DNA from: Bacillota bacterium
GTDB taxonomy: Bacteria; Bacillota; Clostridia; Christensenellales; UBA1431
Assembly (NCBI GenBank): GCA_049324235.1
Contig: JBMOLJ010000070.1
Location: 1 to 61,614 of the forward strand
Direction of reading: 5' to 3'
Length of the DNA: 61,614 nt
Shown here: positions 45,800 through 60,550 of the stretch, piece after piece
How the letters are laid out: each line of letters opens with the position of its first letter
Position numbering within the stretch: the first letter of the stretch is position 1
Notes under the pieces: model-generated
Database searches by the model: none
The model's input: the letters and a program-made list of their open reading frames with translations, nothing else
Told to the model about the DNA's origin: nothing
Position numbers and translations under genes: made by a program

Positions 45800-46327
45800 A
45801 TGAAACGGGAATTTTTGGAAGGCCTCAAGCTTGAGAAGGACGTTATAGACCAGATCATGGCGGAGCACGGCCGGGACATCACCAGGCTGACGGCAGAGCG
45901 CGACCAGTATAAAGAGCAGCTCGGCGCTGCACAGGCCGCCCTGAAGAACTTTGAGGGCGTGGATGTTGCCGAACTCAAAGGCCAGATCAGTAAACTTACA
46001 AATGACCTGTCAACAAAGGATACGGAGTTCCAGCAGAAACTTGCGGACATGCAGTTTTCTGCGAATCTCGAAAAGGCCGTGGCCGGGGCAAGAGCAAAAA
46101 ACGCGAAGGCCGTTATGGCACTGCTCGACCTGGACGCGCTTAAAGCCAGCAAGAACCAGGATGCGGACATTGCCGCCGCGCTGGCAGCTGTCAAGAAGGA
46201 GGCGGGCTATCTGTTTGAAGCGCCCGCACGTGTCGTAGCGCCTACTCCGGGCGCGACGCAGAACCCAGACGACTTAAAAAACAGAGCGAACGAAGCTTTC
46301 AGGAGCTTGTTCGGGAAAGGTGAGTAA
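45800..46327 (+). CDS. Phage scaffolding protein (GP20-like)
   Basis: MKREFLEGL.LEKD.ID.IM.EHG, coiled coil, AKN.KAV.ALLD, YLFE. Confidence 0.88.
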   Translation: MKREFLEGLKLEKDVIDQIMAEHGRDITRLTAERDQYKEQLGAAQAALKNFEGVDVAELKGQISKLTNDLSTKDTEFQQKLADMQFSANLEKAVAGARAKNAKAVMALLDLDALKASKNQDADIAAALAAVKKEAGYLFEAPARVVAPTPGATQNPDDLKNRANEAFRSLFGKGE

Positions 46328-46330
46328 AGA

Positions 46331-46395
46331 ATGATTTCAAGGAAACAGGCGGAAGCTATTATCCGCGAACAGATCGTACAGACAGTATTTCCGCG
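46331..46395 (+). pseudogene. Probable start of the major capsid gene, truncated
   Basis: MISRKQAEAIIREQIVQTVF directly after scaffold gene, ending at an IS end. Confidence 0.5.
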
Positions 46396-46400
46396 CCCAA

Positions 46401-46545
46401 GGAAACTGCTGAAAAAATTGTGTAAACCTCCGTTGTCAGGTAAGATAAGAACAATGGAGGTTATTCGTTATGGCAAAGAAAGAAAAGAGTCTCATGCGGC
46501 AGTTAATTGAAGAACGCGGGATCAAGGATATCGCTGGCGTTGGAC
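46401..46545 (+). mobile_element. IS256-like left end with transposase N-terminus
   Basis: Terminus GGAAACTGCTGAAAAAATTGTGTAA, RBS GGAGG, MAKKEKSLMRQLIEERGIKD. Confidence 0.6.
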
Positions 46546-46552
46546 GAAGAAC

Positions 46553-47520
46553 TAAGGCAACACCGCACAGAAGCCAAGCGAGGGAAAAAGTGGTAAAACA
46601 TGAATATGAATAAGCAAATAACGCTGTCCGCAGTGAGCGACGAGCTGGCTCAGGTCAAGACGAAGAAGAAAGAATTTCTGGAGCAGATTGAGCGAATCAT
46701 TCCATGGGGCGAATGGATAAACATGATAAAACCGTACTATTACAAGGAGAGCGCGGGAATAAGCCCTATGAACTGGAAAAGATGCTGCGGCTGCATGTGT
46801 TACAGAACCTATATAATCTGTCCGACGATGCGACGGCGGTGGAAGTGGTAGACAGCCGTGCCTTCTCTGAATTTTGCGGAGTGGATTCGAACAATCAGGC
46901 GCCGGACGGAGACACGATCGGGCGTTTTCGCAATATACTGGTTCGAAACAGGCTACAGGAAAAGCTGTTCGCGTAGGTGGTAGACATGCTGCAGCAAAGG
47001 GGCCTGCTTGCTCAGGAAAGGAACTATCGTTGATTCCACACGCATAGAGGCTCCTTCCTCCACGAAGAACCGTGAAAAGCAACGGGATCCGGATGCGCAT
47101 CAGGTGAAGACCGGTCTGACACACCATCTGGAAGTGACCAGTGCGAATGTCCATGATGTGACGGTAGTCCCTAAGCTGCTTACCGGTGAAGAAACGGGAG
47201 TTTACGGCGACAGTGGCTATCTGGGCGCGGAAAAGCGCGAGGATGCCATCACGCATAATGTTCAGGGCAAAGGTAGAGCATGTTTTCGGAGTCGTCAAGG
47301 GGCTGTTTCGTTACCGAAAAACGCGATATCGGGGACTGCGAAAGCAGACAGCCAAAATAAATATGCTTTTCGCGCTTGCGAATCTCTATCTTGCTGACAG
47401 GCGGTACCTATCGGCTTGGTTGGGATTTCCCCGCGGCGAAGTTTTCAACAGAGCGCCAGGCTTTTAGGGGAATCTATTGCGTCCGGAGTGTTGTCTGGTG
47501 AATTGTGCGGCGTTGCCTTA
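46553..47520 (+). mobile_element. Degenerate IS5-family element
   Basis: Inverted ends TAAGGCAACACCGCACA / TGTGCGGCGTTGCCTTA (1 mismatch); fragments GTIVDST, YGDSGY, RAKVEH.F; frameshifts and stops. Confidence 0.88.
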
Positions 47521-47900
47521 AAACATACGCCTCGCCTAGGCGCGGGAAAGAAAACGAATGGTTGTTCCACGGCGCAGACGGAGAACCATTATGCCAGAGC
47601 ACGTTAAAACGCATGTGGCTGCGGCTGATGGTACATGCCGGACTGGTGGAAAAAAGGCCGAATGAACAGAAAAGGAAACGAAAGGAACTGACGCATAAAT
47701 ATATTCCTACAATAACGCCGCATTACCTGCGGCATAACTATATTGGATGCTGTATGAAGCCGGTATCGACGCGGCAAAGGCTATGCGTATTGTTGGACAT
47801 TCCGACTACCAGACCACGGTCAACACATCAAAAAGGAACGCTTACAAGAAACAGGTGCAAGGCTGGACGGCGGTTCTCCGAATTAAAAGTTGCCAGAAAG
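47521..47900 (+). pseudogene. Tyrosine integrase C-terminal fragment
   Basis: TPHYLRHNY and GHSDYQTT motifs split by a frameshift; ends next to the att site. Confidence 0.82.
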
Positions 47901-47980
47901 TTGCCGGAACGCCAAAACTTCCCTGGTTAGGCTGAAATAAGAAAACCCTCTCAAACGCTTTGTTTAAGAGGGTTTCAACG

Positions 47981-48026
47981 TGGTCTGGGTGAGAGGATTT
48001 GAACCTCCGGCCTCTTGAACCCCATT
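47981..48026 (-). repeat. att site: 3' half of tRNA-Pro(GGG), copy 1
   Basis: Minus strand AATGGGGTTCAAGAGGCCGGAGGTTCAAATCCTCTCACCCAGACCA; identical to 59084-59129; 5' half absent. Confidence 0.92.
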
Positions 48027-48197: not shown

Positions 48198-48518
48198 TTA
48201 TTGTCTAACATAAACCGTGGTTTGCTTTGGGCTGGACTCGGTTAAAGTGAGCTTGTTTCCCTCGATCTTGTATGTACCGGTTTTTTCAATGCCGTTAACC
48301 GTCAAGGTAATCTTGTCGCCGTCGGCCTTATAGGTTGCCGTTGTTTTAAGCTCGTTTACCACATACATTTTGAGCGTTCCGTCATCCAGAAACTCCATGG
48401 TAGTCCTGCCTGTATCCTCGTCTTTCCATTTTCCGGCTAAGGATGTTGAACTGCCGCATGCGGCCAGCAAAAGGGAGAGACATAATACTAGTATTAGAAT
48501 AGAAATGCTCTTTTTCAT
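48198..48518 (-). CDS. Small lipoprotein (DUF5640-like)
   Basis: Lipobox LAAC; LAGKW, EF..DGT, Y...G.K.TLT repeats. Confidence 0.8.
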   Translation of the reverse strand: MKKSISILILVLCLSLLLAACGSSTSLAGKWKDEDTGRTTMEFLDDGTLKMYVVNELKTTATYKADGDKITLTVNGIEKTGTYKIEGNKLTLTESSPKQTTVYVRQ

Positions 48519-48582
48519 AAATAATCATACCCTTCAATAGTAATTGTCTAGCAAGGTAAGTCACACCAATTTTGAATAGCTT

Positions 48583-49878
48583 TCAATCAATACTGATTTC
48601 CGGATGTTCTTGCAACCATTTTCGATCGGATTCCTGAATATCTTTCATTTTCTGATAAGCAAGAGCATTCGCTTCACTCCTTGATAGGCTCTTATCCTTT
48701 TTCATCAGATCCTCAACTATAATCTTCATTTGCTGGTAATACCCATCACTAAATCCTTCATCATAACCAATAATAATATAACCGTTGTCTGTCTTCTTTA
48801 GAGTAAGAATCAGTTCTTCTCCGACACCTCCGCCTATGTTGGTATACACATAGATATGAAGCTTAACCGAACCGTCTTTCTCCGTGGGTTTATCTAAAAT
48901 CTCAAAGCTTCCCCGTTCAACACAATATAATTGAGTTCCATATGTTTGAGCGGCTTGAATATACAAGTCCATAGTATAAAAGAATAAGTCCGTGTTTTCA
49001 TTTCTCTCAATCAATTTGCTTAAATCGGGAATCATATGCGTCTTTTTCGCAAGGTAGAACTGATACCTGAGTTCTACGGCGACGTTCCCCATCCTTTTTT
49101 CTTCGGGCGTGCAGGTTCTATCGCTTTCTTGGATGTATCTTTCAATTATTAATTTTCCATATAGAAACATGCTATAGCCCATCATTGCATTTTCATCTAA
49201 GGCTGTACCCCTCTCTTTTGCATACTGAACAGCATCATTTGCATAACTGCGAAACGCATCATTGTTTCCTGAGAATGCGGTGATCAGCATGCCGGTTGAC
49301 GTGTTTTCAAGGAGCACATCAATCGTTTCGGTACCAGCATTTTTGCCATCGAGTAACATAGTAAAATTTATTTTTGCAGAAATACGGAAACCTTTTTGCT
49401 CTATCGATTCAATGTTTATTTGAGTGGCAGTAAGGGCTTCGCCGTCATTCAATTCCGCCGCTTTCAATGCTTGGTATTGCAGGTAGTTTGCCATGATAAG
49501 AGTATCATTATTGATTCTGAGGAATTTGTTAAAATCTTCCGAAGCATACAAATCATTGAGCACTGAAGAAACTGTATCCACGACTTCTTCTTTCGTCTGT
49601 TTACTCGGTTCAACTGCGGCGGAAAGCTGATACACCATCTCGTTTATCACAGGAATGTTAGCTGCCAAAGCCGGATTTGCTACGAAATAAATTAAAGCTG
49701 CCAAAATCAATGTAAAGCTCGCCGCAACCGCGATGGATGCTTTTTTTAAATTGCGCCGGGGTTTTGACGGCAATCTTTTAAACGTATCCTTTATTTTATT
49801 TTCATAGCTTTCAGGCATGTTAGGAAATGCATCATTAAGATTATATTCCATTTGGTAATCCTTAACAGAGTAATTCAT
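48583..49878 (-). CDS. Membrane-anchored anti-sigma factor (DUF4179-like)
   Basis: Short N-terminus, one TM, NPALAANIPVI motif, large external domain; overlaps the sigma gene. Confidence 0.8.
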   Translation of the reverse strand: MNYSVKDYQMEYNLNDAFPNMPESYENKIKDTFKRLPSKPRRNLKKASIAVAASFTLILAALIYFVANPALAANIPVINEMVYQLSAAVEPSKQTKEEVVDTVSSVLNDLYASEDFNKFLRINNDTLIMANYLQYQALKAAELNDGEALTATQINIESIEQKGFRISAKINFTMLLDGKNAGTETIDVLLENTSTGMLITAFSGNNDAFRSYANDAVQYAKERGTALDENAMMGYSMFLYGKLIIERYIQESDRTCTPEEKRMGNVAVELRYQFYLAKKTHMIPDLSKLIERNENTDLFFYTMDLYIQAAQTYGTQLYCVERGSFEILDKPTEKDGSVKLHIYVYTNIGGGVGEELILTLKKTDNGYIIIGYDEGFSDGYYQQMKIIVEDLMKKDKSLSRSEANALAYQKMKDIQESDRKWLQEHPEISID

Positions 49879-50365
49879 TATTGATCTCCTCATTTAGTTG
49901 TTCTCTTAGTATTTGCCGTCCTCTGGATAACCGGCTCTTCACCGTACCTTCCGACACTTGCATGATGTATCCGATCTCGTGAATCTTGTAACCATTAACA
50001 TAGAATAGGGTCAGGGTCAATCTAAATTCAGGCTTCAGGGATCGCAGCGCCCTGTTCAATTCAATATCCGGTATTTCCTGTTCCTCAATATTACTCTGTA
50101 CTGTGTCTACAGTTATTAATCTCTTATTTTTCCGGACTATCATGAAGCATTCATTTTTGAGAATCCGAATAATCCACGCCCTGAACATCTCAGGTTTCTT
50201 TAACTGGCAGATTTTTTCATATGCTTTCAGGATGGTTTCCTGTACTGCATCTTCGCAATCAGCTTTGTTTCCTAGTATTGCGTAGGAGACGTGAAACATA
50301 GAATCTCTTATTTCCATGACTGCATCAGAAAAAACATCCTTATTACAATAATTTGTTTTATCCAT
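49862..50365 (-). CDS. ECF RNA polymerase sigma factor
   Basis: D.EDAVQET, F.AW..RI..N, EGTVKSRLSRGR. Confidence 0.93.
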   Translation of the reverse strand: MDKTNYCNKDVFSDAVMEIRDSMFHVSYAILGNKADCEDAVQETILKAYEKICQLKKPEMFRAWIIRILKNECFMIVRKNKRLITVDTVQSNIEEQEIPDIELNRALRSLKPEFRLTLTLFYVNGYKIHEIGYIMQVSEGTVKSRLSRGRQILREQLNEEINNELLC

Positions 50366-50404
50366 TTTTACCTCCTTCCTAAGTTATCTCTTGTCGCTAA
50401 ACAA

Positions 50405-50432
50405 TAGATGAAGAACACGATTAAAAGGTTCC
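50405..50432 (-). promoter_or_regulatory. Putative ECF-type autoregulatory promoter
   Basis: GGAACC-16-CATCTA upstream of the sigma RBS. Confidence 0.5.
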
Positions 50433-50590
50433 CTTGATCAGAATTGTCTGCATTTTCCAATTCCATAAACCCTTTGGAGAGATTTGTTGAAGAAGGAATT
50501 CCCATATCAAGGGGCAACCAGCTTACAGCTACTTGCCCCCAGAATATTTTTCTTTCAATCAAAACCATTGCTGTAAATTGAACCCTCCTA

Positions 50591-53500
50591 CTAAAATGTT
50601 GTCGATTTAAACCTCATTAAACGCATTTTCCCAAACAGGATTCCATCGCTTCCCACATTATCTGCGATTGTTTCATCTAATGGCCGCCACCCGTATTCTC
50701 CACTATGCTGTGCGACATACACGTTATGTAAATTAATTGTACCGCTAGTGGGCACATCAGAAACCACTATAACCGAATGCCAATATCGAGGTCTAGATAA
50801 ATCAGGGTTATAGAATTGGAGAACGTCACCCTTTTTGATAGTTACCGGAAGGCTAGTCCAATACTGATTATTGTTATAGCCTGTTGCTCTTGGTCCATTC
50901 CCCTTATTTGATGTTGCGTAATTCCACAATGATACGACGTTTTGCCAATACTCTCCTGCGCCCCCATTTGGATAAGGAGATTTAGCGTTGCGTCCCCACC
51001 ATTTGCCAGGTTGTCGGTAGTTTTTTGAAACCCTTACGCGAATCTGTTCCTGGCCGTATGCTGTTTTTATATTATACCCAGCTGTTCCCCCATATCCCGC
51101 CCAAATACACTGTGATACGAAGTTCGTACAATCGCCACCTGGTGTACGGCAAAATATTTGGTTGTAATATTTGGGCCCAAAATATTTACCATACTCAGCC
51201 GCACTCGTAGCATTAAAGGAAACTGGAACATGTCCGGTAGGATCAAAGCAATTTATCGGATCTCCATCGCAATACATGTACAGATGCCAGAACGCCTCGC
51301 CGCCGCCCCTGTAGCTGTCCTCGGAAATAAACCTGCCGGTATCCGGCTCATAATACCTAGCGTTCATGTAATACAGCCCTGTTTCCTCATCGTTAACCGC
51401 ACCCGTAAACGCAAAGCTGTTTACAAAGGTTCCCGTTCCAGTCGTATTACCGTATGCCTCGTAGGTATAGCTCTTCACAACGTTGTCTGTGCTGTCTACA
51501 ATATTAGTTATACTTCCTCTAACATCCTGACGATACCAATAACTGTTCCCGTTGGCGCGTTTGCCGGATATTATACTGCCGTCAGGTTTCAGTACGTTTT
51601 CTTCAATTGTAGCGCCGGTCCCGTCTTTTGTATACAACAGGTCGGTACCGTTGTAATAATAATTGGTTACATTGGTGCCAACCGTCTTTTGGGTCCGCTG
51701 CCCTGCTCCATCATATGCATACGATGCAATCTGAACAACCGGGTCCTGCCCATCCTGCTCACTTACTGACTCCAAATGGTTCGCCGGATCGTAATCATAG
51801 GTGGTAGTTACATCCCCTTCCACCTTGGTTATCTGGTTCCCGGATAAGTCGTATTCGTATGTGTCTACAGGTGTCTGGCCATTCAAAACCTCGAGCAACT
51901 GATCGCTGCCGTTACTGTTTTCTTCATAATCATACACATACGAATAGGTGACGCCGCCTTTGGTCATGGTCTGCCGGTTACCCGCGGCGTCATAGGTGTA
52001 CTGCGTGGTAACGCCCCCGATGGTATCCTGCGCGAGCCTGCCGAGATTATCGTATGTATACTCTTTTTCTACGGTCACGGGTGTACCGCCGTATCTCGTC
52101 GTAACAGTCTCCTGTGAAATCCTGTTCTGATCATTGTAATCAATCGTGTATTCTTCCAGCACCGTAGAATTGTCCGCGTTATAGTATTTTACCCCGGTGA
52201 GCTTGTTCAGATCGCCATAGGTGAATTCCTGTTTCACCCTGTTGCTGCCGCGGACATCCTCTAAATATGCCAGTTGTCCATCCGTATAAAAGTACTCGCG
52301 AAGGATTGGCGCATCAAGTAGGTTCCCTCCGTTGGTCCAATCCCTGACCGTTATCACCTTCCCCGCCTCATCGTAGATGTACCCTATCTTGCGGGTGCCC
52401 GTACCGCCGTACCGGATGCTCTCGAGATTACCGGTGTCCGTATAGGTGTATGCGGCAATCACCGTCTCAGTCCCCTGATCGATTTGTTTCCGCTTTTCTA
52501 TGACCCTGTTCATGTCGTCGTAAACATATCTCGTCGTTGTCTCCTGCCCGTCCTTGGTCAGGATTTCTCGGGTTACGTTTCCGTTATCGTCATATTGATA
52601 ATCGACATAATGTCCGGTCGTATACTGGACCTTCGTCTTCCGGTTCAAGCCGTTATAGGTATAGGTAGTAACTGCGCTTTCATTGGGGAAATTGGTATCG
52701 GTCAGCGTACTTGTAAGCATGTTTCCATTATCGTCGTAGGTGTACTCCGTTGTCTTTGTTCCCTTGGTTTCTTTTATGACCCTGCCTGAAGTATCGTACT
52801 CCGTTACCGTTTCCCTTTCCAACGAATCGGTCATTGTAGTTCTGGTTTTGCCGTTGTAGACCCCGTCATAGGCGTATTCCGTTGTGCTTGAAGTACCATT
52901 CTTTGTCAGGGTATCCGTTAATACCCTCCCCAGCTTGTCAAATGTCTTAACGGTCGTAACTTCGGGAGAAACTACCTGCAGCACATTGCCTGCACCGTCA
53001 TAAGTATAGTTAGTCGTTTCCGTATCGCTTCCCTTGGCCGCGGTCGTGCTGTTGACTTGGCCCATATTGTCGTATTCGTTCGTCATTACCGCTCCGGTTT
53101 GATCCGTGCTCCACACAGTATATCCCATTACATTGTTTTGGGTGATGTCATATGAAACAAATGTATCTGTATTATATTTATAGCATTTGTTCGTGGAGTC
53201 GTACGTTACGTTTGCGGGTAAAGTGTAGCCTGAAGGTAAAGTCGCGCTATAGTTGCCACTGTTATTATCCAGTGTACCCAGTACTCCTGTAAATACATTT
53301 TTGCCTTTCTTATCGGTTATGCAAATATTCTGATTTCCTTCCGCATCTGTATTTATCTTTACCCGCGTACCGTCAGACTGTACGGTATAGGTTGTGGTTT
53401 CCTCCGTATCGTCGTGATTGGTCACGTGCGTCTGCCTACCCAGAGAGTCGTAGGTGTATTGGGTAACCTTCCCCTCTCCGTCCGTACTACTCAATATATT

Positions 53501-56500
53501 CCCCATCGCATCATATGTGCTGGATGTCGTAACCGCATCGGCCGTCCCATATGCGGATGTGGTACTGGTGCATCTGCCCAGTATGTCATATTGGTAGTTC
53601 GTAACGATGCCTTTTTCATCCGTCATCGTGTCAATATTGCCGTAGGTGTCATAGGTCTGCTGGGTCGTTGTATCATCGGGGTTGGTCGTTTCAATGAGTC
53701 TGCCCTTCGCGTCGTATGCATACTCCGTTATTGACACGCTGCTTCCGCCTGCCCCCGTAACGGTCACCGTTTGCGACGTTACTTTTCCCATTGCATTGTA
53801 CGTATACGTGGTCACCTGGGGGATACCCTGAACAGAGGTCTCGGTCAGGTTACCGTGTTCATCATATTCATTGTCCGTAATCTTCTTGTTAGTTCCGTTG
53901 AACGGCTCGCTGACCTGTGTGGGTAAATCTGGATTATTGGAATCGCCATAGGTGTAATCTGTGGTTTTACCGGCCGCATCGGTGAAATGCGTCAGGTTTC
54001 CGCCGGAATATTGCGAAGTGTTTTCCGTATTATCCGGATACGTGACATGCGTAACGTTGAAATCCGCATCATTGGTGTATACCGTGTCGTTGTCATTTTC
54101 AAATTTTATCTTTTTCAACGCAAGGCTGTTGGTGTCGTAATAGTATTTTTGTGTTACATGGTTCAGCACAGTCGTCACCAATATATCCCCATTATCAGTA
54201 GAGTAGGCTACGGTCATTTCCTGGGCAAGGGGATTGGTTACGCCCGTTACTTTTTTATTGGCATCCGTATTGTACGCGATATCATATTCATATCCGCCGG
54301 GATTCTTCACCGTTGTGATTATTCCATCCGTATAGGTGTATTCCTCCCCATGCTGCCCGTTATATGAAATATACGCTTTTGTCAGCTTGCGGTTGCTATA
54401 TAGATATGTATATGTTTTACCGCTGCCGGCTACCGTTTTGATTAAGCCGCTTTCCCCTGTTTCAGTGGAATACGTGATATTCATTTCATTTTCAACGTTA
54501 TCCGTTGCGGATACCATGTTTCCGGTATTGTTGTAACTGAACTCTATCCAGTTTCCGTTTCTGTCCGTTATCTTTTCTATTTGGTTGTTTGCATTGAACA
54601 AGTATACCGTCTTATCTTTATACGTCAAGGAGAACTTGCCTGTCCCGGTATCGTATGACAGAGTAGCATATAATCCTGCAGGTCGCGTGTATGTCCCGTC
54701 CGTATTCTTTAAGAAGCGGTACGTGGTGCCATCACCAAGTTTTAATATCATATAGGTTTTTTGTTCAGTCGCATTATACTGCTTAATTAAGGCGATATTG
54801 TAGTTAAAATCCCATCCTTGCCCCAAAGGAGTAGTATAAGCAGCTTGGCTATTGTAGGCACGCGAAAAAGCAAGCGAGCCTATGGGTGAATCCATCGTCA
54901 AATCCGATGTTTGATACAGAACATTGCCTGATGCAGGATTAATGTAACCGTTGCCGCTCTTTGTATCAAAACCTAATGGGTTCTCGTAGACTTTCTTGCC
55001 TATTTTCTTATTAAATTCTTCTTCCGTAACCGTTTGAGCCGAAACCTCGTTGGATGGGACACTCTCCCTCTCGCGTACGGTGGATTGAATGGTATAATCC
55101 TTAACGGCTGTTACCTTATAATAGAATTGTTTGTTGAGCTGCTGATTATTATCACAGTAATAACTCGTCGTTAGATCGGACGCGATAAGCGTTGAGGAAG
55201 ACGGCGTGAACAGCGGTGTCTCGCTGCGGTAAACGTTATATGTGACGCCAGTAGTCGTGCTCGGTTCCCAGGTCAGCCGCGTCATATAGTTGGCATCTGC
55301 AACAGCGGAAAGGTTGTCCGGCTCGTCGATGAGTTTTACCTCGTGCGCTTCACCGCTTACAGTCTGCATGCCCCGTAAAGATATACTATGAAGCACAGGT
55401 ATAGCTGTACTGTGTGATTCAAATTCGACACTAAGCTTGAGTTCACGCCCCGGATCTGCTATCTCCGACCAGGCCCAGTAGTTGCTTGGAACATGGGGGT
55501 CTTCCGGATTCGTTACGCTGGAATCCGGTGTGACGTCCTGCCACGTCCACTGTTCCCCGCTCCACTCGGAAAGATAATAGCGTATGCACGTTCCTTCAGG
55601 CTCTTCGGTATCTACGTCTAAAAATACCCTTCGAACATCGCCCGGGGTCAGCTTTACCGTAGTTTCGAAACATCCCCAAGTATAACCACCTTCCGGATCA
55701 ACATCTAACTTAATGCTCCCTCCATCCGATACATCCAGTGAAGTACCATAGAATTCGGATATCTGCTTGTCATCTGTGAACGAGTCGTTATAAATCTCGG
55801 ATTCACCCCAAGGCTCATACGAAACCTCCAAATGCCATGCATCTACTGACGGCGTAACAGCCGTATCCGTTGTGCTCATTTCGGCTTTCAGAACAAATGA
55901 CTTGTAATATCCTTGTAGCTCGGCTTTGTAGCCGGGATAAATCGTGACCCAATTAGCCGGTCCCAAAACAATTTTGTAGGTAATATCCGTGTTTTCCGGT
56001 ATATCATCATCTACAACCAACTTAACATAATTTATTCTGCCATTTATCTGCATATCCTTACTTTGAAAGCAGCCTTCCGTAGCATAGGTGCCTCCGGTGT
56101 TTTTCAGCTTCATCATGCCATTAACAAGCTCTGTATCATTCAGGTCATAGATTCCGTCTGTATTGTCAAAGAAATCCGTAACCAGGTTGCCCGTGTAACT
56201 TTGGTTGGTAAAATGTTCAACATCGTTGTTGTCCTTGGCCCTTACCTTCAGGAAAGCCTGGACGCCTTCGGGGTAAACCCATTTATCATTCGTTGCATCA
56301 TACTCCAAAGGATTGAAGGCAAGGTCCATGTCTCCGGCCGTCTGAACGTCTTTTTGCACATCATTTGCGTAGAGTGTGCCCAGCATATTATCAGACGGAC
56401 TGTAGGTTACGTTGACATTGTTTACAGTAATATCATCGCCGGGATTTATGGCATTTTGCGCATCATCCTTTAACGTCATCGTTATATTGGGAACGTCTGT

Positions 56501-57781
56501 ATAGATGATTGTAAAGTAACTCGGCTCAGAAGATGCATTGGATGCTCTGAAGTTTTTGTATACGCTTTGGCCTTCGTCGCTGCTCTTTATGATCATGCCG
56601 TTATTGGCAATTGCACCTGAAAACCAGTTCTGCACTAAATACGTTATATTCCAGGTGTACCTTTGGACAGCGGTAACAGTAATAAAATCTTCGACATATG
56701 ACGAATAATTCGGCTGATTCGAATAATTTACGGTAGAATCGTTCCAACTGCTTAAGAGTTTTCTTATTTCCACCGTTTCGGTGTCAGTGCCCGCATAATC
56801 CTGATAGGCGCTGTACCATGCTTTAATTATTTTTGCCCCTGTTAACTGACTGGGGAAGGAGTTTATTTTTACTAAGCCTCTGGTTACATAAAGGTCCGAT
56901 GAATAACCGACCTTTGTTGAATAATCCGAGCTGTAATTGTTATTCGGATATCTGCTGGACACAAATGTATCCGATATATAGTTTTGATCGATGTTCAATG
57001 TCGGGTCAATTTTTACCGGATACACGGTCTTTTTATTCTCCAAAAACGCTCTGCTAGGCGTCAGTGTATATTTATATGTAGTGTCATTTATCTTCTCGAG
57101 CCTTACTTGAATATCATACGTAAACTGTTGTTCTTTCGAAGAATCGCACATACTCGGCGATGCGATGGTAGCAACCAACAAGTTATTCTTTTGATCAATG
57201 AAATATAGGTTCCCGCTGTCATCCAGTCGCGGAACTGCGTTTTTCATATTTAATTCGTATGAAAACTCTGTTTCAGTCGGAATCTGATTCAGTATGATAT
57301 CTTCTTTCATCCCGTTTGCGTTGGGAGTTAATTGTATATCGGCATTCTCGTTGAACGTTTTAGAATACTGCATCGAATCGTATTTCTTAGCTTTGTCGAA
57401 TTTATTATCTTTGGCTTTTGTCTTATCTGCCCTGGAAAAGCTTAATGTCGATGAACTCTTGCCTTTTTCTTTTTCAATATCCAACGGTTTAAAACCGATT
57501 GAATAGTCTTTATAGTTCACTTGTATTGCGTTGCTCTTGTCGAGGTTGTCCGAAAACAATACGTCAACATCGGAGCTCTTGTTTTTATACTGATAATCAG
57601 GGTTTTTTGTTTTATCCGTTTGGACTATGCTGTTGTCGATGTTTTTCCATTTGCCTTGTTCATCTTTATAGCGTACAGGATTAGAATATATCTTTGCCGT
57701 TTTCGTTCCATCGCTATTCTCTGTAATTGTGGTATATTTATTCATCACAAGGAAGGGTTTTGAGTTTCGCCAATTCATCAT
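50591..57781 (-). CDS. RHS/YD-repeat protein (DNRLRE-like, FN3, RHS core) with C-terminal Amidase_6-like domain; 5' end probably damaged
   Basis: Many YD repeats; core GLYYMNARYY.P..GRFIS.D...DP...DPTG; tip GDCTNFVSQC..AG, HSVIV, AQHS; no signal peptide. Confidence 0.9.
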   Translation of the reverse strand: MMNWRNSKPFLVMNKYTTITENSDGTKTAKIYSNPVRYKDEQGKWKNIDNSIVQTDKTKNPDYQYKNKSSDVDVLFSDNLDKSNAIQVNYKDYSIGFKPLDIEKEKGKSSSTLSFSRADKTKAKDNKFDKAKKYDSMQYSKTFNENADIQLTPNANGMKEDIILNQIPTETEFSYELNMKNAVPRLDDSGNLYFIDQKNNLLVATIASPSMCDSSKEQQFTYDIQVRLEKINDTTYKYTLTPSRAFLENKKTVYPVKIDPTLNIDQNYISDTFVSSRYPNNNYSSDYSTKVGYSSDLYVTRGLVKINSFPSQLTGAKIIKAWYSAYQDYAGTDTETVEIRKLLSSWNDSTVNYSNQPNYSSYVEDFITVTAVQRYTWNITYLVQNWFSGAIANNGMIIKSSDEGQSVYKNFRASNASSEPSYFTIIYTDVPNITMTLKDDAQNAINPGDDITVNNVNVTYSPSDNMLGTLYANDVQKDVQTAGDMDLAFNPLEYDATNDKWVYPEGVQAFLKVRAKDNNDVEHFTNQSYTGNLVTDFFDNTDGIYDLNDTELVNGMMKLKNTGGTYATEGCFQSKDMQINGRINYVKLVVDDDIPENTDITYKIVLGPANWVTIYPGYKAELQGYYKSFVLKAEMSTTDTAVTPSVDAWHLEVSYEPWGESEIYNDSFTDDKQISEFYGTSLDVSDGGSIKLDVDPEGGYTWGCFETTVKLTPGDVRRVFLDVDTEEPEGTCIRYYLSEWSGEQWTWQDVTPDSSVTNPEDPHVPSNYWAWSEIADPGRELKLSVEFESHSTAIPVLHSISLRGMQTVSGEAHEVKLIDEPDNLSAVADANYMTRLTWEPSTTTGVTYNVYRSETPLFTPSSSTLIASDLTTSYYCDNNQQLNKQFYYKVTAVKDYTIQSTVRERESVPSNEVSAQTVTEEEFNKKIGKKVYENPLGFDTKSGNGYINPASGNVLYQTSDLTMDSPIGSLAFSRAYNSQAAYTTPLGQGWDFNYNIALIKQYNATEQKTYMILKLGDGTTYRFLKNTDGTYTRPAGLYATLSYDTGTGKFSLTYKDKTVYLFNANNQIEKITDRNGNWIEFSYNNTGNMVSATDNVENEMNITYSTETGESGLIKTVAGSGKTYTYLYSNRKLTKAYISYNGQHGEEYTYTDGIITTVKNPGGYEYDIAYNTDANKKVTGVTNPLAQEMTVAYSTDNGDILVTTVLNHVTQKYYYDTNSLALKKIKFENDNDTVYTNDADFNVTHVTYPDNTENTSQYSGGNLTHFTDAAGKTTDYTYGDSNNPDLPTQVSEPFNGTNKKITDNEYDEHGNLTETSVQGIPQVTTYTYNAMGKVTSQTVTVTGAGGSSVSITEYAYDAKGRLIETTNPDDTTTQQTYDTYGNIDTMTDEKGIVTNYQYDILGRCTSTTSAYGTADAVTTSSTYDAMGNILSSTDGEGKVTQYTYDSLGRQTHVTNHDDTEETTTYTVQSDGTRVKINTDAEGNQNICITDKKGKNVFTGVLGTLDNNSGNYSATLPSGYTLPANVTYDSTNKCYKYNTDTFVSYDITQNNVMGYTVWSTDQTGAVMTNEYDNMGQVNSTTAAKGSDTETTNYTYDGAGNVLQVVSPEVTTVKTFDKLGRVLTDTLTKNGTSSTTEYAYDGVYNGKTRTTMTDSLERETVTEYDTSGRVIKETKGTKTTEYTYDDNGNMLTSTLTDTNFPNESAVTTYTYNGLNRKTKVQYTTGHYVDYQYDDNGNVTREILTKDGQETTTRYVYDDMNRVIEKRKQIDQGTETVIAAYTYTDTGNLESIRYGGTGTRKIGYIYDEAGKVITVRDWTNGGNLLDAPILREYFYTDGQLAYLEDVRGSNRVKQEFTYGDLNKLTGVKYYNADNSTVLEEYTIDYNDQNRISQETVTTRYGGTPVTVEKEYTYDNLGRLAQDTIGGVTTQYTYDAAGNRQTMTKGGVTYSYVYDYEENSNGSDQLLEVLNGQTPVDTYEYDLSGNQITKVEGDVTTTYDYDPANHLESVSEQDGQDPVVQIASYAYDGAGQRTQKTVGTNVTNYYYNGTDLLYTKDGTGATIEENVLKPDGSIISGKRANGNSYWYRQDVRGSITNIVDSTDNVVKSYTYEAYGNTTGTGTFVNSFAFTGAVNDEETGLYYMNARYYEPDTGRFISEDSYRGGGEAFWHLYMYCDGDPINCFDPTGHVPVSFNATSAAEYGKYFGPKYYNQIFCRTPGGDCTNFVSQCIWAGYGGTAGYNIKTAYGQEQIRVRVSKNYRQPGKWWGRNAKSPYPNGGAGEYWQNVVSLWNYATSNKGNGPRATGYNNNQYWTSLPVTIKKGDVLQFYNPDLSRPRYWHSVIVVSDVPTSGTINLHNVYVAQHSGEYGWRPLDETIADNVGSDGILFGKMRLMRFKSTTF

Positions 57782-57853
57782 TGGTTATCAGTAATGATTT
57801 ATCTGTTTCATTACCTGGTGATGCGGTTGGAGAAGGCGCAGGGAGGTATGAAT

Positions 57854-58957
57854 ATGGCAAAAAAGAGGATGAACGGCGAAGGGACGATGAGAAAAAGGCC
57901 TGACGGGCTATGGGAACAGACCATCATGATTGGCTATACCGCTGAAGGAAAACGCAAGCGGAAATCATTTTATGGTCGAACCCAAAAAATCGTCTCGGAT
58001 AAGGTTGCCGAATTCAAAAGCCATCAGACCATGGGGCTTTCTGCGGAGTCCGAGATCAGATTCGGCCAATGGGCCGATAAATGGTATGACGGTTATAAAG
58101 GCCAAGTAAGCGATGTAACCTATGAAAGCTATAAATACACTCTCCGCATACTCAAGGATGAATTCAGCAACCGTAAACTCCGGTCAATCAAACCGCTCGA
58201 TATAGAGAATTTTCTGAAAAACCTACAGGCCGAAAAAAGCGACTCAGCTGTTACGAAATGCCGTGGGATGATATACCAGATCATGCACAAAGCGGAAGCA
58301 AACGATTTGATATTGAAAAATCCCGTCCGGCTTGCTGACAAGATCAAGAGGAAATCCAGTAACAAAAAAAGTAAGGATTCTTTTACAAAAGAAGAGGTTT
58401 CCATCCTTTTTGACAAGCTGCCATTGGACAAAATGGGACATACCATCCGCCTCATGATCGGAACAGGAATGCGTGCGCAGGAAGTGGTTTGCCTTGAAAA
58501 AAAGCATATCGCCGAAGACGGCGGTATTGTAATGATTCGACAGGCTGTGGAAAACCTTAAGGGAAAAACGATCCTTCGAGAAGATCATACAAAGTCCAGT
58601 CTCAGCGTCAGGGACATCCCTGTACCCGAATATGTGCGGGAAAGCGCAGTGTTCCTGAGGGAACAGGCTAACCCCTTTGTATGGGATGGCAAAATTCCCG
58701 GGACGGTTTTCAATCTGCGGAATTTCAGAGCGAAATATCAGAAAACCATTTCTGCTGTCGGCATACGTCTGCTTACGCCACATTGTCTGCGGCATACATA
58801 CGTCACCATGTTACAGTCTCTTGGCATACCGATGGAAGTGATTGCCGCGCTGACCGGTCATGCGGATGTGGAGACTACCAACGGATATCTGCATATCCAG
58901 CAGGACACCGCTGAAAATGTCTGTAAAATATATTCAAAAGCACTGTCTGAGATGTAA
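57854..58957 (+). CDS. Tyrosine recombinase/integrase
   Basis: N-terminal NGEG....R.DG.W arm-binding domain; TGMR.QE, H.LRHT, GH......Y catalytic residues. Confidence 0.95.
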   Translation: MAKKRMNGEGTMRKRPDGLWEQTIMIGYTAEGKRKRKSFYGRTQKIVSDKVAEFKSHQTMGLSAESEIRFGQWADKWYDGYKGQVSDVTYESYKYTLRILKDEFSNRKLRSIKPLDIENFLKNLQAEKSDSAVTKCRGMIYQIMHKAEANDLILKNPVRLADKIKRKSSNKKSKDSFTKEEVSILFDKLPLDKMGHTIRLMIGTGMRAQEVVCLEKKHIAEDGGIVMIRQAVENLKGKTILREDHTKSSLSVRDIPVPEYVRESAVFLREQANPFVWDGKIPGTVFNLRNFRAKYQKTISAVGIRLLTPHCLRHTYVTMLQSLGIPMEVIAALTGHADVETTNGYLHIQQDTAENVCKIYSKALSEM

Positions 58958-59083: not shown

Positions 59084-59129
59084 TGGTCTGGGTGAGAGGA
59101 TTTGAACCTCCGGCCTCTTGAACCCCATT
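59084..59129 (-). repeat. att site: 3' half of tRNA-Pro(GGG), copy 2
   Basis: Identical to 47981-48026; 5' half of the tRNA absent here too. Confidence 0.92.
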
Positions 59130-59289: not shown

Positions 59290-60507
59290 CTACTTATAAT
59301 ATCTCACTATGTGCAAGTAGTGTTTAACTGTATAGGGCATTGACGAAAGAGGATAGTTAAGAGAATATGACGAACTATAAAAGGAATGCTGCGAAATCAA
59401 TATGATTCTAGGGAACGAAACAATATATGTAACAATTGAACTGTGCGTACTTTTTCTTCTCCCATCAACACTCCATGTGCCGGAACCTTCACCGCAATAC
59501 TGAATAATGTCTCCTAATTGCATATTGCTCTCTGTAGAATGTGTGGCATATAATCCATAGTTTGTTGATGTAGAATTATTGTTATAGTACACATATTGCC
59601 TAAAATATTGCGCGGAAGTCCAACTGGCGGTTCTGGAAGATGAAGAATCCCAATACCATTGACGTTCCGCGCTACTGCCACTTCTATCCTTTGGAATCCC
59701 TCCTTTATATAATGCTATCGATATAAAATTGGTGCAATCAGCAGAATATGTTGCCCAAGGCGATGGATTATTTGACTGCGCATATGTCGTTGCATAGTTT
59801 TGCGCATTGGTTCTGTTATATGAATATGCGGTTGCTTTTGTCTCATTGGGTATGCTCTCATCGTTGGCGTTTTCAATTACAGTTTTTGCCTCTTCTTTAA
59901 TGCTTTTTTCTATCTGTTTATTGTATTCTTCCTTAATCTCCGATGATGTGGACAATGTTTTGGAGAGACTCTCATATACCTTCATCGTTTCGTCATCTTC
60001 GCAAGTAAACTCTGTAATATACCAATGCTCGTTGATTTTTTCTAGAGTCACCTTATATGGAATATTACCACGTTTTGAGTGTATGGTTGGACATAAATTA
60101 AAACAGATATCTTCATTCAATAAGAAATTTAAAGTTGCTGTATTGTTTGTTACCGAAATATCTTTATAATCCAGGTTAAAAGAATACTTATCAAAGGTTA
60201 AATCATCACTTTTTGCCGCTCTAAAAGCAATTTTCATTTCCAGAACAGTAGACATTTTTTCTATAATAGCTGATTGCGGCTTGAAACACCTTTCCTTCAT
60301 GGAAAGCAGAGTTACCTTCGTTGTGGAATCGGAAAGTTTTGATAATGCCTGATATTCATAATCGAAATAGCTTTGTATTGTTTCCTTAATTGCCTGTTCG
60401 TCACTTTGAGCCGAGACTACAGTATTTGTAGCATCAGCAGCATATGCAACGGGTGCTGAACAAACCAATAACATTACAGCTAAAGTTAACTGAAAAATAC
60501 GTTTCAT
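59290..60507 (-). CDS. Secreted Amidase_6-like domain protein
   Basis: Signal peptide ending AYA; YNR..A.NYA, DCTNF.S.AL..GG, GDIIQY, HSSIV, SQHS. Confidence 0.88.
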   Translation of the reverse strand: MKRIFQLTLAVMLLVCSAPVAYAADATNTVVSAQSDEQAIKETIQSYFDYEYQALSKLSDSTTKVTLLSMKERCFKPQSAIIEKMSTVLEMKIAFRAAKSDDLTFDKYSFNLDYKDISVTNNTATLNFLLNEDICFNLCPTIHSKRGNIPYKVTLEKINEHWYITEFTCEDDETMKVYESLSKTLSTSSEIKEEYNKQIEKSIKEEAKTVIENANDESIPNETKATAYSYNRTNAQNYATTYAQSNNPSPWATYSADCTNFISIALYKGGIPKDRSGSSAERQWYWDSSSSRTASWTSAQYFRQYVYYNNNSTSTNYGLYATHSTESNMQLGDIIQYCGEGSGTWSVDGRRKSTHSSIVTYIVSFPRIILISQHSFYSSSYSLNYPLSSMPYTVKHYLHIVRYYK

Positions 60508-60550
60508 CGCTAATTCTCCTTGTTTTTGAGTTGAGGCAACCGTTTCTGGT

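What the first reader, a model, noticed from the sequence alone, without database searches (positions are those of the whole stretch)
48198..57781. RHS protein tipped with an Amidase_6-like domain, with an ECF sigma/anti-sigma/lipoprotein module in the immunity position
Seen: after the RHS core DPTG motif (~51230) comes a ~210-aa AT-richer tip with DCTNFVSQC, HSVIV and QHS motifs, the same pattern as the stand-alone protein at 59290-60507. Established: RHS tips after DPxG are swappable effectors normally followed by an immunity gene. Here the co-oriented downstream genes are an ECF sigma, a single-TM anti-sigma and a small lipoprotein. Inference: a cell-wall-attacking RHS effector whose self-protection or induction runs through an envelope-sensing ECF circuit, carried on its own integrase island. 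I do not recognise this arrangement as a described system.
Basis: partly seen in the sequence, partly recalled or inferred. Interest (0 to 1): 0.82.

Follow-up and report, generated by a model that had tools for sequence, protein, structure and literature searches.

The report
RHS amidase toxin with matching anti-sigma receptor
A small mobile island carries a giant RHS toxin tipped with a putative cell-wall amidase, followed by a sigma/anti-sigma switch whose outer domain is related to that amidase's natural partner domain and is predicted to cap its active site, so self-protection and gene induction may be one device.

Summary
A 2396-aa RHS protein (50591-57781, minus strand) ends, right after DPTGH, in a 212-aa Amidase_6 domain (PF12671, E 3e-19). 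An ECF sigma, a single-pass anti-sigma and a DUF5640 lipoprotein follow. All lie with an integrase between perfect 46-bp repeats of a tRNA-Pro 3' end, forming an 11.1-kb island.

New here: the anti-sigma ectodomain is two NTF2-like domains. These are homologous to the N-terminal domain of the ~430-aa stand-alone Amidase_6 proteins that are the tip's closest relatives (hhalign E 5e-10; shuffles give nothing). They are also homologous to lipoproteins encoded beside secreted Amidase_6 genes.

Related sigma/anti-sigma pairs sit next to such amidase genes in five loci. In four of these loci, a GGAAC-N18-ATCTA promoter-like motif precedes both the sigma operon and the amidase gene. The window's sigma operon carries the same motif.

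A co-fold places the ectodomain over the tip's catalytic Cys/His (score 0.86, best control 0.21).

Best reading: an RsiV-like receptor/inhibitor circuit dedicated to an amidase, here captured as an RHS tip-plus-immunity cassette.

Caveats: this RHS lacks the signal peptide that its homologues have, no enzymatic activity is shown, and no second RHS-linked case could be examined.

The parts
47981..48026 (-). Distal att repeat: 46 nt identical to the 3' part (anticodon loop to CCA) of tRNA-Pro(GGG)
   Evidence: A perfect direct repeat with 59084-59129. The whole tRNA gene is on contig C23. Contigs of other runs run from the repeat into other flanks (loose ends).
48198..48518 (-). Small lipoprotein (106 aa, lipobox LAAC), DUF5640/lipocalin-like. 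Last gene of the probable sigma operon; role open.
   Evidence: Among the 15 related loci, a homologue was seen only in L019, 5 kb from the sigma gene.
48583..49893 (-). Anti-sigma factor (436 aa; start probably M6 at 49878). It has a cytoplasmic N-terminus, a TM helix about 52-72 and a conserved PALAA (AxA) plus amphipathic stretch 74-91. The ectodomain is two NTF2-like domains (~98-230 and ~262-432).
   Evidence: Weak DUF4179 hit. Family of 26 proteins and alignment with conserved PALAA, GVGEE and GDG motifs. AF2 pLDDT 85-96 over the ectodomain. Foldseek finds NTF2-like double domains. Homology to the Amidase_6 N-terminal domain.
49862..50365 (-). ECF sigma factor (167 aa), overlapping the anti-sigma start
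   Evidence: Sigma70_r2, r4_2 and Sigma70_ECF. TIGR02954 1.6e-34 and SigV model 3.4e-28, both below their cut-offs.
50405..50432 (-). ECF-type promoter-like motif GGAAC-N18-ATCTA, ending 39 nt before the sigma start codon
   Evidence: The same motif at the same spacing precedes sigma genes in L011, L017, L018, L025 and L026, and Amidase_6 genes in L011, L017, L025 and L026. The strict motif occurs 3 times in the 2.28-Mb genome, once in the window.
50594..51229 (-). RHS tip: 212-aa Amidase_6 (papain-like) domain, with Cys2218, His2335 and Gln2358-His2359 invariant in the subfamily
   Evidence: PF12671 E 3.2e-19. Invariant columns in alignment A2. AF2 pLDDT 87.5. Best Foldseek match is B. subtilis YjcM, 9a4p_A, E 5.4e-5.
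51230..51463 (-). RHS-associated core ending in DPTGH (51230-51244), the junction to the tip
   Evidence: TIGR03696 residues 2107-2184, E 1.2e-21. The junction lies at the same place in homologues that carry other tips.
51464..57781 (-). RHS body: DNRLRE domain, DUF6531 and YD/RHS repeats. The N-terminus is truncated relative to homologues (no signal peptide, no Shine-Dalgarno).
57794..58957 (+). Tyrosine integrase of the island (a likelier start lies ~55 nt downstream, behind GGGAGG)
   Evidence: Phage_integrase 7.4e-16 and SAM-like domains. Sequence. It lies 127 nt inside the right att repeat.
59084..59129 (-). tRNA-proximal att repeat (46 nt); no whole tRNA here
   Evidence: ARAGORN and Rfam find no tRNA in the window.
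59290..60507 (-). Outside the island, in the next element: a secreted stand-alone protein with the same N-terminal NTF2-like domain plus Amidase_6
   Evidence: PF12671 1.4e-27. NTD profile E 3.2e-23 over its residues 1-213.

Best explanation
An 11.1-kb island integrated at tRNA-Pro carries a polymorphic RHS toxin and a dedicated sensing/protection circuit for its tip.

The tip is the bare catalytic domain of one Amidase_6 subfamily (a papain-like Cys-His enzyme, presumed to cleave peptidoglycan). In its closest relatives that catalytic domain is either preceded by an NTF2-like domain or encoded next to an NTF2-like lipoprotein. In the island the same kind of domain, in two copies, forms the outer part of the anti-sigma factor.

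Inferred mechanism:
1. The membrane-anchored ectodomain binds the amidase domain over its catalytic Cys/His. On the cell surface this neutralises it, which is immunity.
2. As with RsiV and lysozyme, binding exposes the conserved AxA site next to the membrane. The anti-sigma is then degraded and the ECF sigma is freed.
3. The sigma transcribes from GGAAC-N18-ATCTA promoters: its own operon here, and the amidase gene in related loci.

Shown by computation: domain identities, the island, the homology of the ectodomain to the amidase partner domain, the recurrent gene linkage, the shared motif, and a controlled co-fold. Inferred: binding in fact, inhibition, proteolytic signalling and the enzyme's substrate.

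The RHS gene in this genome has lost the signal-peptide region, so this copy may be a recent relic of the working arrangement.
For: 1. Tip identity: PF12671 at 70.1 bits against a cut-off of 23.2. Cys/His/Gln-His are invariant in 16 of 16 aligned sequences. AF2 model pLDDT is 87.5 and the best PDB match is B. subtilis YjcM.

2. Tip relatives: an exhaustive phmmer search found 205 proteins at E<=1e-3. Of the 150 listed, nearly all are 400-470-aa proteins with the domain at the C-terminus, and only one (P0155, 2376 aa) is another RHS.

3. Homology: a profile of the N-terminal ~230 aa of 40 such proteins matches the anti-sigma family twice. It matches P0004 262-432 at 96.6% probability, E 4.9e-10, and P0004 50-262 at 95.4%, E 1.7e-8. 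Thirty column shuffles and a reversal score at most 21.1, against 72.7 for the real alignment. The same profile hits the window's anti-sigma directly at 59-235 and 262-425, full E 2.6e-15 among 6 sequences.

4. Linkage, searching with the anti-sigma family (15 loci): a sigma gene lies directly upstream in 13 of the 13 loci that hold upstream sequence. An NTD-Amidase_6 gene with tip phmmer E 2e-40 to 5e-62 is adjacent in L006, L011 and L017.

5. Linkage, searching independently with the tip family (80 metagenome loci). Of the 14 closest loci (tip E<=6e-38):
- 2 have the divergent sigma/anti-sigma pair.
- 11 have ~243-aa lipoproteins matching the second ectodomain repeat directly beside a secreted ~246-aa amidase.
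- 1 is cut at the gene.
Four further loci with frameshifted amidase genes show the same lipoprotein neighbour. None of the other 62 loci has such a neighbour.

6. Promoter motif: GGAAC-N18-ATCTA sits before the sigma operon in the window and 5 loci, and before the divergent amidase gene in L011, L017, L025 and L026, 10 sites in all. The strict motif occurs 3 times in the whole genome.

7. Co-fold of the tip with ectodomain 95-436: score 0.86 (runs 0.87, 0.82, 0.86), best of 3 controls 0.21. That mark was reached by 58 of 80 solved complexes and 2 of 110 mismatched pairs, and these counts hold only roughly because my own alignments were used. The runs share at least 82% of contacts and partner pLDDT is at least 87. 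The interface includes tip residues 30-33 (Asp32, Cys33), His150 and Gln173, and the anti-sigma's invariant GVGEE (354-360) and GDG (380-385) loops. No PDB chain resembles either partner by sequence (best E 0.27 and 0.54).

8. Switch region: P74, A75, L76, A77, A78, P81, V87, Y88 and S91 are at least 90% conserved just outside the TM helix. In RsiV the corresponding DUF4179 region holds the signal-peptidase site and the protective amphipathic helices (passages, PMC6066255).

9. Island: 46-nt perfect repeats, an integrase and a GC drop.
Against: - The RHS starts only 13 residues before the conserved N-terminal motif. It has no hydrophobic leader and no Shine-Dalgarno, and a stop lies two codons upstream. 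The eight closest homologues (P0182-P0189) and P0155 all begin with a signal peptide. The toxin may therefore not be made or exported here.
- Amidase linkage is not universal. Of the 7 genome loci with several kb on both sides, 3 have it and 4 do not (L008, L010, L012, L014). The other 8 loci are cut.
- None of the 17 related sigma/anti-sigma loci holds an RHS gene nearby.
- The lipoprotein-plus-amidase loci are largely near-identical copies of one or two lineages, so they are not 15 independent cases.
- The window's anti-sigma is only 26-39% identical to the distant relatives in its family alignment (A1), the class to which the amidase-linked anti-sigmas belong.
- The co-fold could simply reproduce the intramolecular packing of the fused proteins, and such packing need not be inhibitory.
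- No member of the family has a shown substrate. B. subtilis YhbB and YjcM are listed as uncharacterised.
- The DUF4179 hit is below Pfam's cut-off, and the sigma is below the SigV model's cut-off.
- Tae3/Tai3 (4HZ9), which a review links to Amidase_6, is not among the top 50 Foldseek matches of either model.
Confidence: 0.55

Rival explanations
1. The ECF pair regulates amidase genes, but the anti-sigma senses the state of the wall or a wall fragment rather than the enzyme. On this reading the NTF2-like domain is a ligand- or wall-binding module shared by the enzyme and its regulator. Protection, if there is any, comes from elsewhere.
For: The NTF2-like fold is a generic small-ligand and protein-binding scaffold (Foldseek matches). 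A domain shared between an enzyme and its sensor could reflect a shared ligand. In L006, L013 and L014 the sigma operon begins with DUF4358 and DHHW (SGNH/AlgX-like) genes, which suggests wall modification. In 4 of 7 well-flanked loci the pair stands without an amidase.
Against: The co-fold puts the ectodomain on the catalytic Cys/His with a clear margin over controls (0.86 against 0.21). Separate single-domain lipoprotein copies in arrays beside a secreted amidase look like inhibitor or immunity genes rather than ligand sensors.
Confidence: 0.22
2. The DUF5640 lipoprotein is the true immunity protein of the tip. The sigma/anti-sigma pair only controls expression.
For: It is a small surface-anchored protein, co-oriented and 64 nt downstream of the anti-sigma. 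That is where an immunity protein against a wall-acting toxin would be expected.
Against: It shows no conserved linkage. A homologue appears in 1 of 15 related loci, 5 kb from the sigma gene, and in none of the amidase-bearing loci. It is not directly after the toxin gene.
Confidence: 0.12
3. Chance neighbours: an RHS toxin and an unrelated ECF module that happen to share an island.
For: ECF pairs are common in Firmicutes. No second RHS-linked example was found.
Against: Two independent searches converge on the same sigma/anti-sigma-amidase arrangement. Further evidence against chance: the domain homology with clean shuffle controls, the shared promoter motif before both genes, and the co-fold.
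Confidence: 0.04

Closest known systems
SigV / RsiV of Bacillus subtilis, Clostridioides difficile and Enterococcus (ECF30): an anti-sigma that is the receptor for lysozyme
   Same: Both have an ECF sigma with an overlapping single-pass anti-sigma, and a DUF4179-type region (TM helix, AxA site, amphipathic stretch) next to the membrane. In both, the proposed ligand is a wall-degrading enzyme bound directly by the ectodomain, with the response passing through proteolysis of the anti-sigma. Sources: titles and abstract starts of PMC5014341 and PMC4183432; passages of PMC6066255.
   Different: The ectodomain here is two NTF2-like domains with no Pfam family, not RsiV's lysozyme-binding domain. 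The sigma scores below the SigV model's cut-off (98 against 190 bits). The ligand would be a bacterial Amidase_6 encoded next door, not a host enzyme. The regulon appears to include the enzyme itself.
RHS/YD-repeat polymorphic toxins with a downstream immunity gene (for example WapA of B. subtilis; recalled, no call)
   Same: DNRLRE/DUF6531/RHS shell, an RHS-associated core ending in DPxGH, and a swappable C-terminal domain. Homologues with 43-50% identical N-terminal parts carry other tips, among them an Amidase_2 tip in P0191.
   Different: There is no small immunity gene directly after the toxin. The 66-codon ORF 50368-50568 has no family hit and overlaps the promoter motif. The immunity position is held by a sigma/anti-sigma/lipoprotein operon. 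This copy lacks the signal peptide.
Tae3-Tai3 (type VI amidase effector and immunity) and IseA-LytE: surface or periplasmic inhibitors of papain-like wall hydrolases
   Same: A small secreted or lipid-anchored protein blocks the catalytic groove of an NlpC/P60-like or amidase effector. A classification paper files Tae3 with Amidase_6 (passage, PMC10318531). Tai3 is described as an IseA-family, DUF3828 protein (passages, PMC12700454; bioRxiv 10.1101/2025.03.19.644130).
   Different: No sequence or fold match was found to 4HZ9 or IseA. Here the inhibitor-like domain is part of a signalling protein.
Stand-alone Amidase_6 proteins of Firmicutes (B. subtilis YhbB and YjcM)
   Same: The catalytic fold is the same: the tip model's best PDB match is YjcM in an integrative YjcM-YjcN model, 9a4p_A. 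The family is common, found in 179 of 399 genomes of the class.
   Different: Those proteins are secreted or sporulation proteins of ~170 or ~380-430 aa, not toxin tips. None of the 150 listed matches lies in a frame longer than 448 aa (100 more matches were not listed). Their function is listed as not determined.

Membership tests
RHS/YD polymorphic toxin | RHS/YD repeats forming the shell | tested here: met
   PF05593 E 4.9e-40 in 9 stretches; TIGR01643 8.1e-23.
RHS/YD polymorphic toxin | RHS-associated core ending in DPxG...DPxGH, followed by a variable C-terminal domain | tested here: met
   TIGR03696 at 2107-2184, E 1.2e-21. PDTG ... DPTGH, then a 212-aa tip. Homologues switch sequence at the same point.
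RHS/YD polymorphic toxin | N-terminal export signal | tested here: not met
   No hydrophobic leader. The protein aligns to P0155 only from that protein's residue 53, and P0182-P0189 all have leaders. No Shine-Dalgarno, and a stop lies two codons upstream.
RHS/YD polymorphic toxin | Small cognate immunity gene directly downstream | tested here: not met
   Only a 66-codon ORF with no family hit, overlapping the sigma promoter motif. The next real genes are sigma, anti-sigma and lipoprotein.
Amidase_6 (PF12671) | Profile match above the curated cut-off | tested here: met
   70.1 bits against 23.2 at residues 2193-2369; 77 bits in the genome search.
Amidase_6 (PF12671) | Papain-like catalytic Cys and His kept | tested here: met
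   Cys33 and His150 (tip numbering; Cys2218 and His2335 in the protein) are invariant in 16 of 16 sequences. Papain-like PDB matches.
Amidase_6 (PF12671) | Peptidoglycan amidase or peptidase activity | not testable with these tools
The B. subtilis members are listed as 'ND'.
ECF sigma / anti-sigma pair of the SigV-RsiV (ECF30, DUF4179) type | Sigma with regions 2 and 4 only | tested here: met
   Sigma70_r2 1.3e-11 and r4_2 8.8e-11 in 167 aa.
ECF sigma / anti-sigma pair of the SigV-RsiV (ECF30, DUF4179) type | Membership of the SigV equivalog | tested here: not met
   NF053879 scores 98.3 bits against a cut-off of 190; TIGR02954 scores 119 against 188.5.
ECF sigma / anti-sigma pair of the SigV-RsiV (ECF30, DUF4179) type | Adjacent single-pass anti-sigma with a DUF4179 switch region (TM helix plus AxA site plus amphipathic helix) | tested here: inconclusive
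   DUF4179 scores 24.9 bits, below the 30.1 cut-off; some homologues carry a precomputed PF13786 hit. There is a TM helix and a conserved PALAA...VY.S stretch. Cleavage was not testable.
ECF sigma / anti-sigma pair of the SigV-RsiV (ECF30, DUF4179) type | RsiV-type lysozyme-binding ectodomain | tested here: not met
   No Pfam family matches the ectodomain. The fold is a double NTF2-like domain.
Tae3/Tai3 effector-immunity pair | Sequence or fold likeness to 4HZ9 chains | tested here: not met
   Profile searches of PDB sequences give no hit at E<=0.27. 4HZ9 is absent from the top 50 Foldseek matches of both models.
tRNA-integrating genomic island | Tyrosine integrase next to a direct repeat of a tRNA 3' end, with deviant composition | tested here: met

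The most novel reading that the evidence does not exclude
Immunity and alarm are one protein. The anti-sigma's outer domain is an immunity domain that captures Amidase_6 toxin arriving at the cell surface, from kin or rivals. By being captured on it, the toxin triggers destruction of the anti-sigma, so the attacked cell answers by switching on its own toxin/immunity cassette. This would be a tit-for-tat circuit in Gram-positive bacteria that travels as an RHS tip-plus-receptor module on a small island. More broadly, it would be a whole ECF family whose ligand is a defined bacterial wall hydrolase.
Probability: 0.22. Interest if true: 0.85.

Novelty: new variant of a known kind. Interest (0 to 1): 0.68.

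Why it matters
For most ECF sigma/anti-sigma pairs the signal is unknown. RsiV with lysozyme is one of the few cases where a protein ligand is defined. Here sequence, context and a controlled co-fold all point to a specific protein ligand, the neighbouring Amidase_6 domain, for an undescribed anti-sigma family. That makes the signal directly testable with two purified proteins and one reporter.

The finding also proposes a role, as inhibitor or partner domain, for the unannotated N-terminal half of a protein family found in 179 of 399 genomes of this class. And it shows how an RHS toxin can capture an enzyme together with its regulator instead of a plain immunity gene.

The full-text searches I ran found no description of an anti-sigma in the immunity position of a polymorphic toxin. 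Those were, terms 'anti-sigma factor', 'immunity protein', 'Rhs', 'ECF' (3 papers, none on this), terms Amidase_6/PF12671 (6 papers).

Tried and rejected
- Direct BLAST of the anti-sigma against the window's stand-alone Amidase_6 protein and against the 353-aa neighbour P0003 found nothing. The relation appears only at profile level.
- A word-index search for long proteins sharing the tip found only the window's own protein among 868 candidates.
- A search of 401 genomes of the host's order with the tip gave 4 genomes with a match and no RHS fusion other than the window's own.
- A scan of viral contigs with the anti-sigma family found no relative.
- An AAC-N15-18-CGT (SigW/M-like) promoter pattern found no shared site before the sigma genes.
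- The more distant sigma operons (L006, L008-L010, L012-L014) do not carry the GGAAC-N18-ATCTA motif. L008-L010 share a different upstream motif that I did not follow.
- RNA: three metatranscriptome libraries from one sludge study hold short (150-470 nt), low-depth (2-5) contigs identical to scattered parts of the island, including two across the RHS-sigma spacer. A DNA run of another study holds similar pieces. Such contigs do not show transcription, strand or level, so I draw no conclusion on expression, and parts without cover mean nothing.
- Earlier notes of this scan held nothing for this place, these words or this sequence.
- The contexts of the other RHS-Amidase_6 protein (P0155) and of the close anti-sigma homologues P0157-P0160 (on contigs of at most 3.1 kb) could not be fetched, because the look-up tool for encoding contigs is closed.

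Full report
OBSERVATION. On the minus strand lie a 2396-aa ORF (50591-57781), a 167-aa ORF (49862-50365), a 436-aa ORF (48583-49893) and a 106-aa ORF (48198-48518).

The large protein has a DNRLRE domain (271-421), DUF6531, many RHS repeats, an RHS-associated core (2107-2184) ending in DPTGH, and then Amidase_6 (PF12671, residues 2193-2369, E 3.2e-19, 70.1 bits against a cut-off of 23.2).

The three downstream genes are:
- an ECF sigma (regions 2 and 4; nearest NCBIfam models TIGR02954 and SigV, both below cut-off);
- a single-pass membrane protein with a weak DUF4179 hit;
- a DUF5640 lipoprotein.

The stand-alone protein at 59290-60678 is also Amidase_6, though only distantly like the tip.

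THE ISLAND. A perfect 46-nt direct repeat (47981-48026 and 59084-59129) brackets the lipoprotein, anti-sigma, sigma, RHS and integrase genes. The repeat is the 3' part of a tRNA-Pro(GGG) gene that stands complete on another contig of the same genome. No whole tRNA lies in the window.

GC is 0.434 inside the island against 0.529 genome-wide. So this is an 11.1-kb tRNA-integrating island.

Remains of other elements lie to its left: a frameshifted integrase, a transposase fragment and phage capsid and scaffold genes. A further element to its right holds the stand-alone Amidase_6.

THE RHS GENE IS SHORT AT ITS 5' END.
- The protein aligns with the only other RHS-Amidase_6 protein found (P0155) from that protein's residue 53.
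- The eight closest RHS homologues (P0182-P0189, 43-50% identical over the first 460 residues, with other tips) and P0155 all start with a signal peptide, followed by 50-130 residues before the first conserved motif. The window's protein has 13 residues and no leader.
- Upstream there is no Shine-Dalgarno. A stop lies two codons before the ATG, and the divergent integrase ORF begins 13 nt away.

I read this as a deletion inside the island. The 2396-codon frame is otherwise intact.

WHERE THE TIP COMES FROM. An exhaustive phmmer search of 1.84 billion representatives with the tip gave 205 hits at E<=1e-3. Among the 150 listed, the best (up to 55% identity) are proteins of about 400-470 aa with the domain at their C-terminus. 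Some are short stand-alone forms, and one is a second RHS.

The tip starts exactly where the catalytic domain of those proteins starts (VSFN...). The N-terminal half of those proteins has no Pfam family.

Amidase_6 as a whole is common in the class: 179 of 399 genomes. None of the 150 listed matches lies in a long frame, and 100 more were not listed. The tip's own branch is rare in the host's order: 4 of 401 genomes.

THE ANTI-SIGMA ECTODOMAIN IS THE AMIDASE'S PARTNER DOMAIN, TWICE. The anti-sigma has 26 database relatives. In their alignment the most conserved parts are PALAA...VY.S just outside the membrane, ERNE.TDLFF, GVGEE and GDG.

A profile of the N-terminal ~230 residues of 40 stand-alone amidase proteins matches this family twice:
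- residues 262-432 at 96.6% probability, E 4.9e-10;
- residues 50-262 at 95.4% probability, E 1.7e-8.

Thirty column-shuffled versions and a reversed one score at most 21.1, against 72.7 for the real alignment. The same profile hits the window's anti-sigma by plain hmmsearch (59-235 and 262-425), and it hits the N-terminal half of the window's stand-alone amidase at E 3.2e-23.

AlphaFold2 models the ectodomain with pLDDT 85-96 as two helix-plus-curved-sheet domains. Foldseek finds NTF2-like proteins, best of all double NTF2-like ones (TcpC 3ub1, VirB8-like OrfG), with latexin and cystatin-like proteins only weakly.

CONSERVED LINKAGE, FOUND FROM BOTH SIDES.

Searching species genomes with the anti-sigma family gave 15 loci from rumen and gut Clostridia.
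- A sigma gene lies directly upstream in all 13 loci that hold upstream sequence.
- A fused NTD-Amidase_6 gene closely related to the tip (phmmer 5e-62, 2e-58, 2e-40) is adjacent in L006, L011 and L017.
- Four other loci with several kb on both sides have none. Eight loci are cut.

Searching metagenome contigs independently with the tip family gave 80 loci. Of the 14 with the closest amidase (E<=6e-38):
- L025 and L026 show the divergent sigma/anti-sigma pair.
- Eleven show a ~243-aa lipoprotein directly beside a secreted ~246-aa amidase that lacks the N-terminal domain, often with further lipoprotein copies. The lipoprotein consists of a lipobox, a Pro/Thr-rich linker and one domain matching ectodomain repeat 2 at about 1e-35.
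- One locus is cut.

Four more loci with frameshifted amidase genes look the same. None of the remaining 62 loci has such a neighbour. Many of the lipoprotein loci are near-identical, so they count as one or two lineages.

Single-domain lipoprotein paralogues also follow the anti-sigma in L006, L007 and L012.

The same catalytic domain therefore travels with the same NTF2-like domain in four forms: fused, as a lipoprotein neighbour, as an anti-sigma neighbour, and in the window as an anti-sigma next to an RHS tip.

A SHARED PROMOTER MOTIF. Before the sigma gene of the window (50405-50432, ending 39 nt before the ATG) and of L011, L017, L018, L025 and L026 lies GGAAC (TGAAC once), then 18 nt, then ATCTA (ATCTT once). 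In L011, L017, L025 and L026 the same motif, pointing the other way, lies 55-72 nt before the divergent amidase gene.

The strict motif occurs three times in the 2.28-Mb genome and once in the window. This is the pattern expected of an autoregulated ECF sigma whose regulon includes the amidase gene. That the sigma uses this motif is inference. In the window, the RHS gene's own upstream region is missing, so it cannot be checked there.

PREDICTED BINDING. The tip (with 15 relatives as alignment) was co-folded with ectodomain 95-436 (23-row alignment).
- The score was 0.86 (runs 0.87, 0.82, 0.86), against 0.21 for the best of three controls.
- The tool's mark was reached by 58 of 80 solved complexes and 2 of 110 mismatched pairs. 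These counts hold only roughly because my own alignments were used.
- The runs share at least 82% of contacts, and the partner's pLDDT is at least 87.
- The confident interface contains tip residues 30-33 (Asp32, Cys33), His150, Gln173 and 175-197. On the anti-sigma it contains the invariant GVGEE and GDG loops of repeat 2 plus helices of repeat 1.
- No solved structure resembles either chain by sequence, so the pass is unlikely to be memory of a solved complex.

The model supports binding; it does not show it. It may also mirror the intramolecular packing of the fused proteins.

MECHANISM. I propose that the NTF2-like domain is the natural cap of this amidase domain. It acts in cis in the fused, secreted proteins (perhaps keeping them latent), and in trans as a lipoprotein or as the anti-sigma ectodomain.

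The RHS protein carries only the uncapped catalytic domain. The island supplies the cap on the cell surface, where a wall-acting enzyme would have to be stopped.

The anti-sigma keeps an AxA site and a conserved stretch just outside the membrane. In RsiV that region holds the signal-peptidase site, which lysozyme binding unmasks (passages of PMC6066255; titles and abstract starts of PMC5014341 and PMC4183432). Capture of the amidase could therefore also free the sigma and raise expression of the operon.

Inhibitors that plug papain-like wall hydrolases are known: IseA-LytE and Tai3-Tae3 (passages of PMC12700454). I found no sequence or fold link to them.

An ECF response to a wall-hydrolase effector is also on record: sigma-W and Tse1, seen as title and abstract start of PMC10100999. 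It is not through a receptor encoded with the toxin.

WHAT REMAINS OPEN.
- The substrate of Amidase_6. The B. subtilis members are listed as not determined (passage of PMC10653849). A classification paper calls the family amidase effectors and cites Tae3 (passage of PMC10318531).
- Whether the cap inhibits or assists the enzyme.
- Whether the lipoprotein 48198-48518 takes part.
- Whether this truncated RHS is still made.
- Whether other RHS genes carry this cassette.

Fragments of the island occur in three metatranscriptome libraries of one sludge study, but as low-depth contigs that cannot show transcription.

VERDICT. The ECF module belongs to the amidase tip.

It is a new variant of known kinds: an RsiV-like hydrolase-sensing ECF pair and an RHS tip/immunity cassette. 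It rests on computation only, and in this genome it is probably a recently damaged copy.

Noticed in passing
window 1803-2161 (+): A tmRNA gene (tag ANNNEYALAA), found by ARAGORN and Rfam.
   Followed up: no
window 44610-47935: A graveyard of mobile elements just left of the island: a fragment of phage minor capsid protein 2, a phage scaffold gene preceded by a GP20-b RNA motif (45715-45781), a DDE transposase fragment, and a frameshifted tyrosine recombinase. The recombinase ends 46 nt before the left att repeat, which suggests an older element at the same tRNA-Pro site.
   Followed up: partly
window 59290-61612 (-): Beyond the right att repeat lies a secreted NTD-Amidase_6 protein, then a 353-aa ORF (open at the contig end) with no Pfam or NCBIfam family. 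The whole tRNA-Pro is on contig C23, so the assembly probably breaks inside a tandem array of islands.
   Followed up: partly
L006 8009-9524; L013 7712-9216; L014 7541-9039; L029 1538-3052; L033 10812-12326; L035 2777-4334: A DUF4358 lipoprotein and a DHHW (SGNH/AlgX-like) protein recur directly upstream of the sigma gene, and inside the lipoprotein/amidase arrays. This hints that wall O-acyl modification belongs to the same circuit, as O-acetylation does in the SigV regulon (recalled).
   Followed up: partly
G000 contig C62 14432-18003: The host has two further Amidase_6 genes of normal GC: one of 212 aa without a leader and one of 392 aa with an N-terminal hydrophobic segment. A 499-aa lipoprotein-like gene lies between them.
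   Followed up: no
L008, L009, L010 upstream of sigma: The more distant sigma operons share a different upstream motif (GAATC.A ... CATCATATAA) instead of GGAAC-N18-ATCTA.
   Followed up: no
window 41109-44462 (+): A 1117-aa protein with CARDB and three CarboxypepD_reg-like domains, probably a surface protein.
   Followed up: no
P0191 (2947 aa RHS homologue): A homologue with the same N-terminal architecture carries an Amidase_2 (PF01510) tip, so wall-amidase tips occur more than once in this RHS lineage.
   Followed up: no
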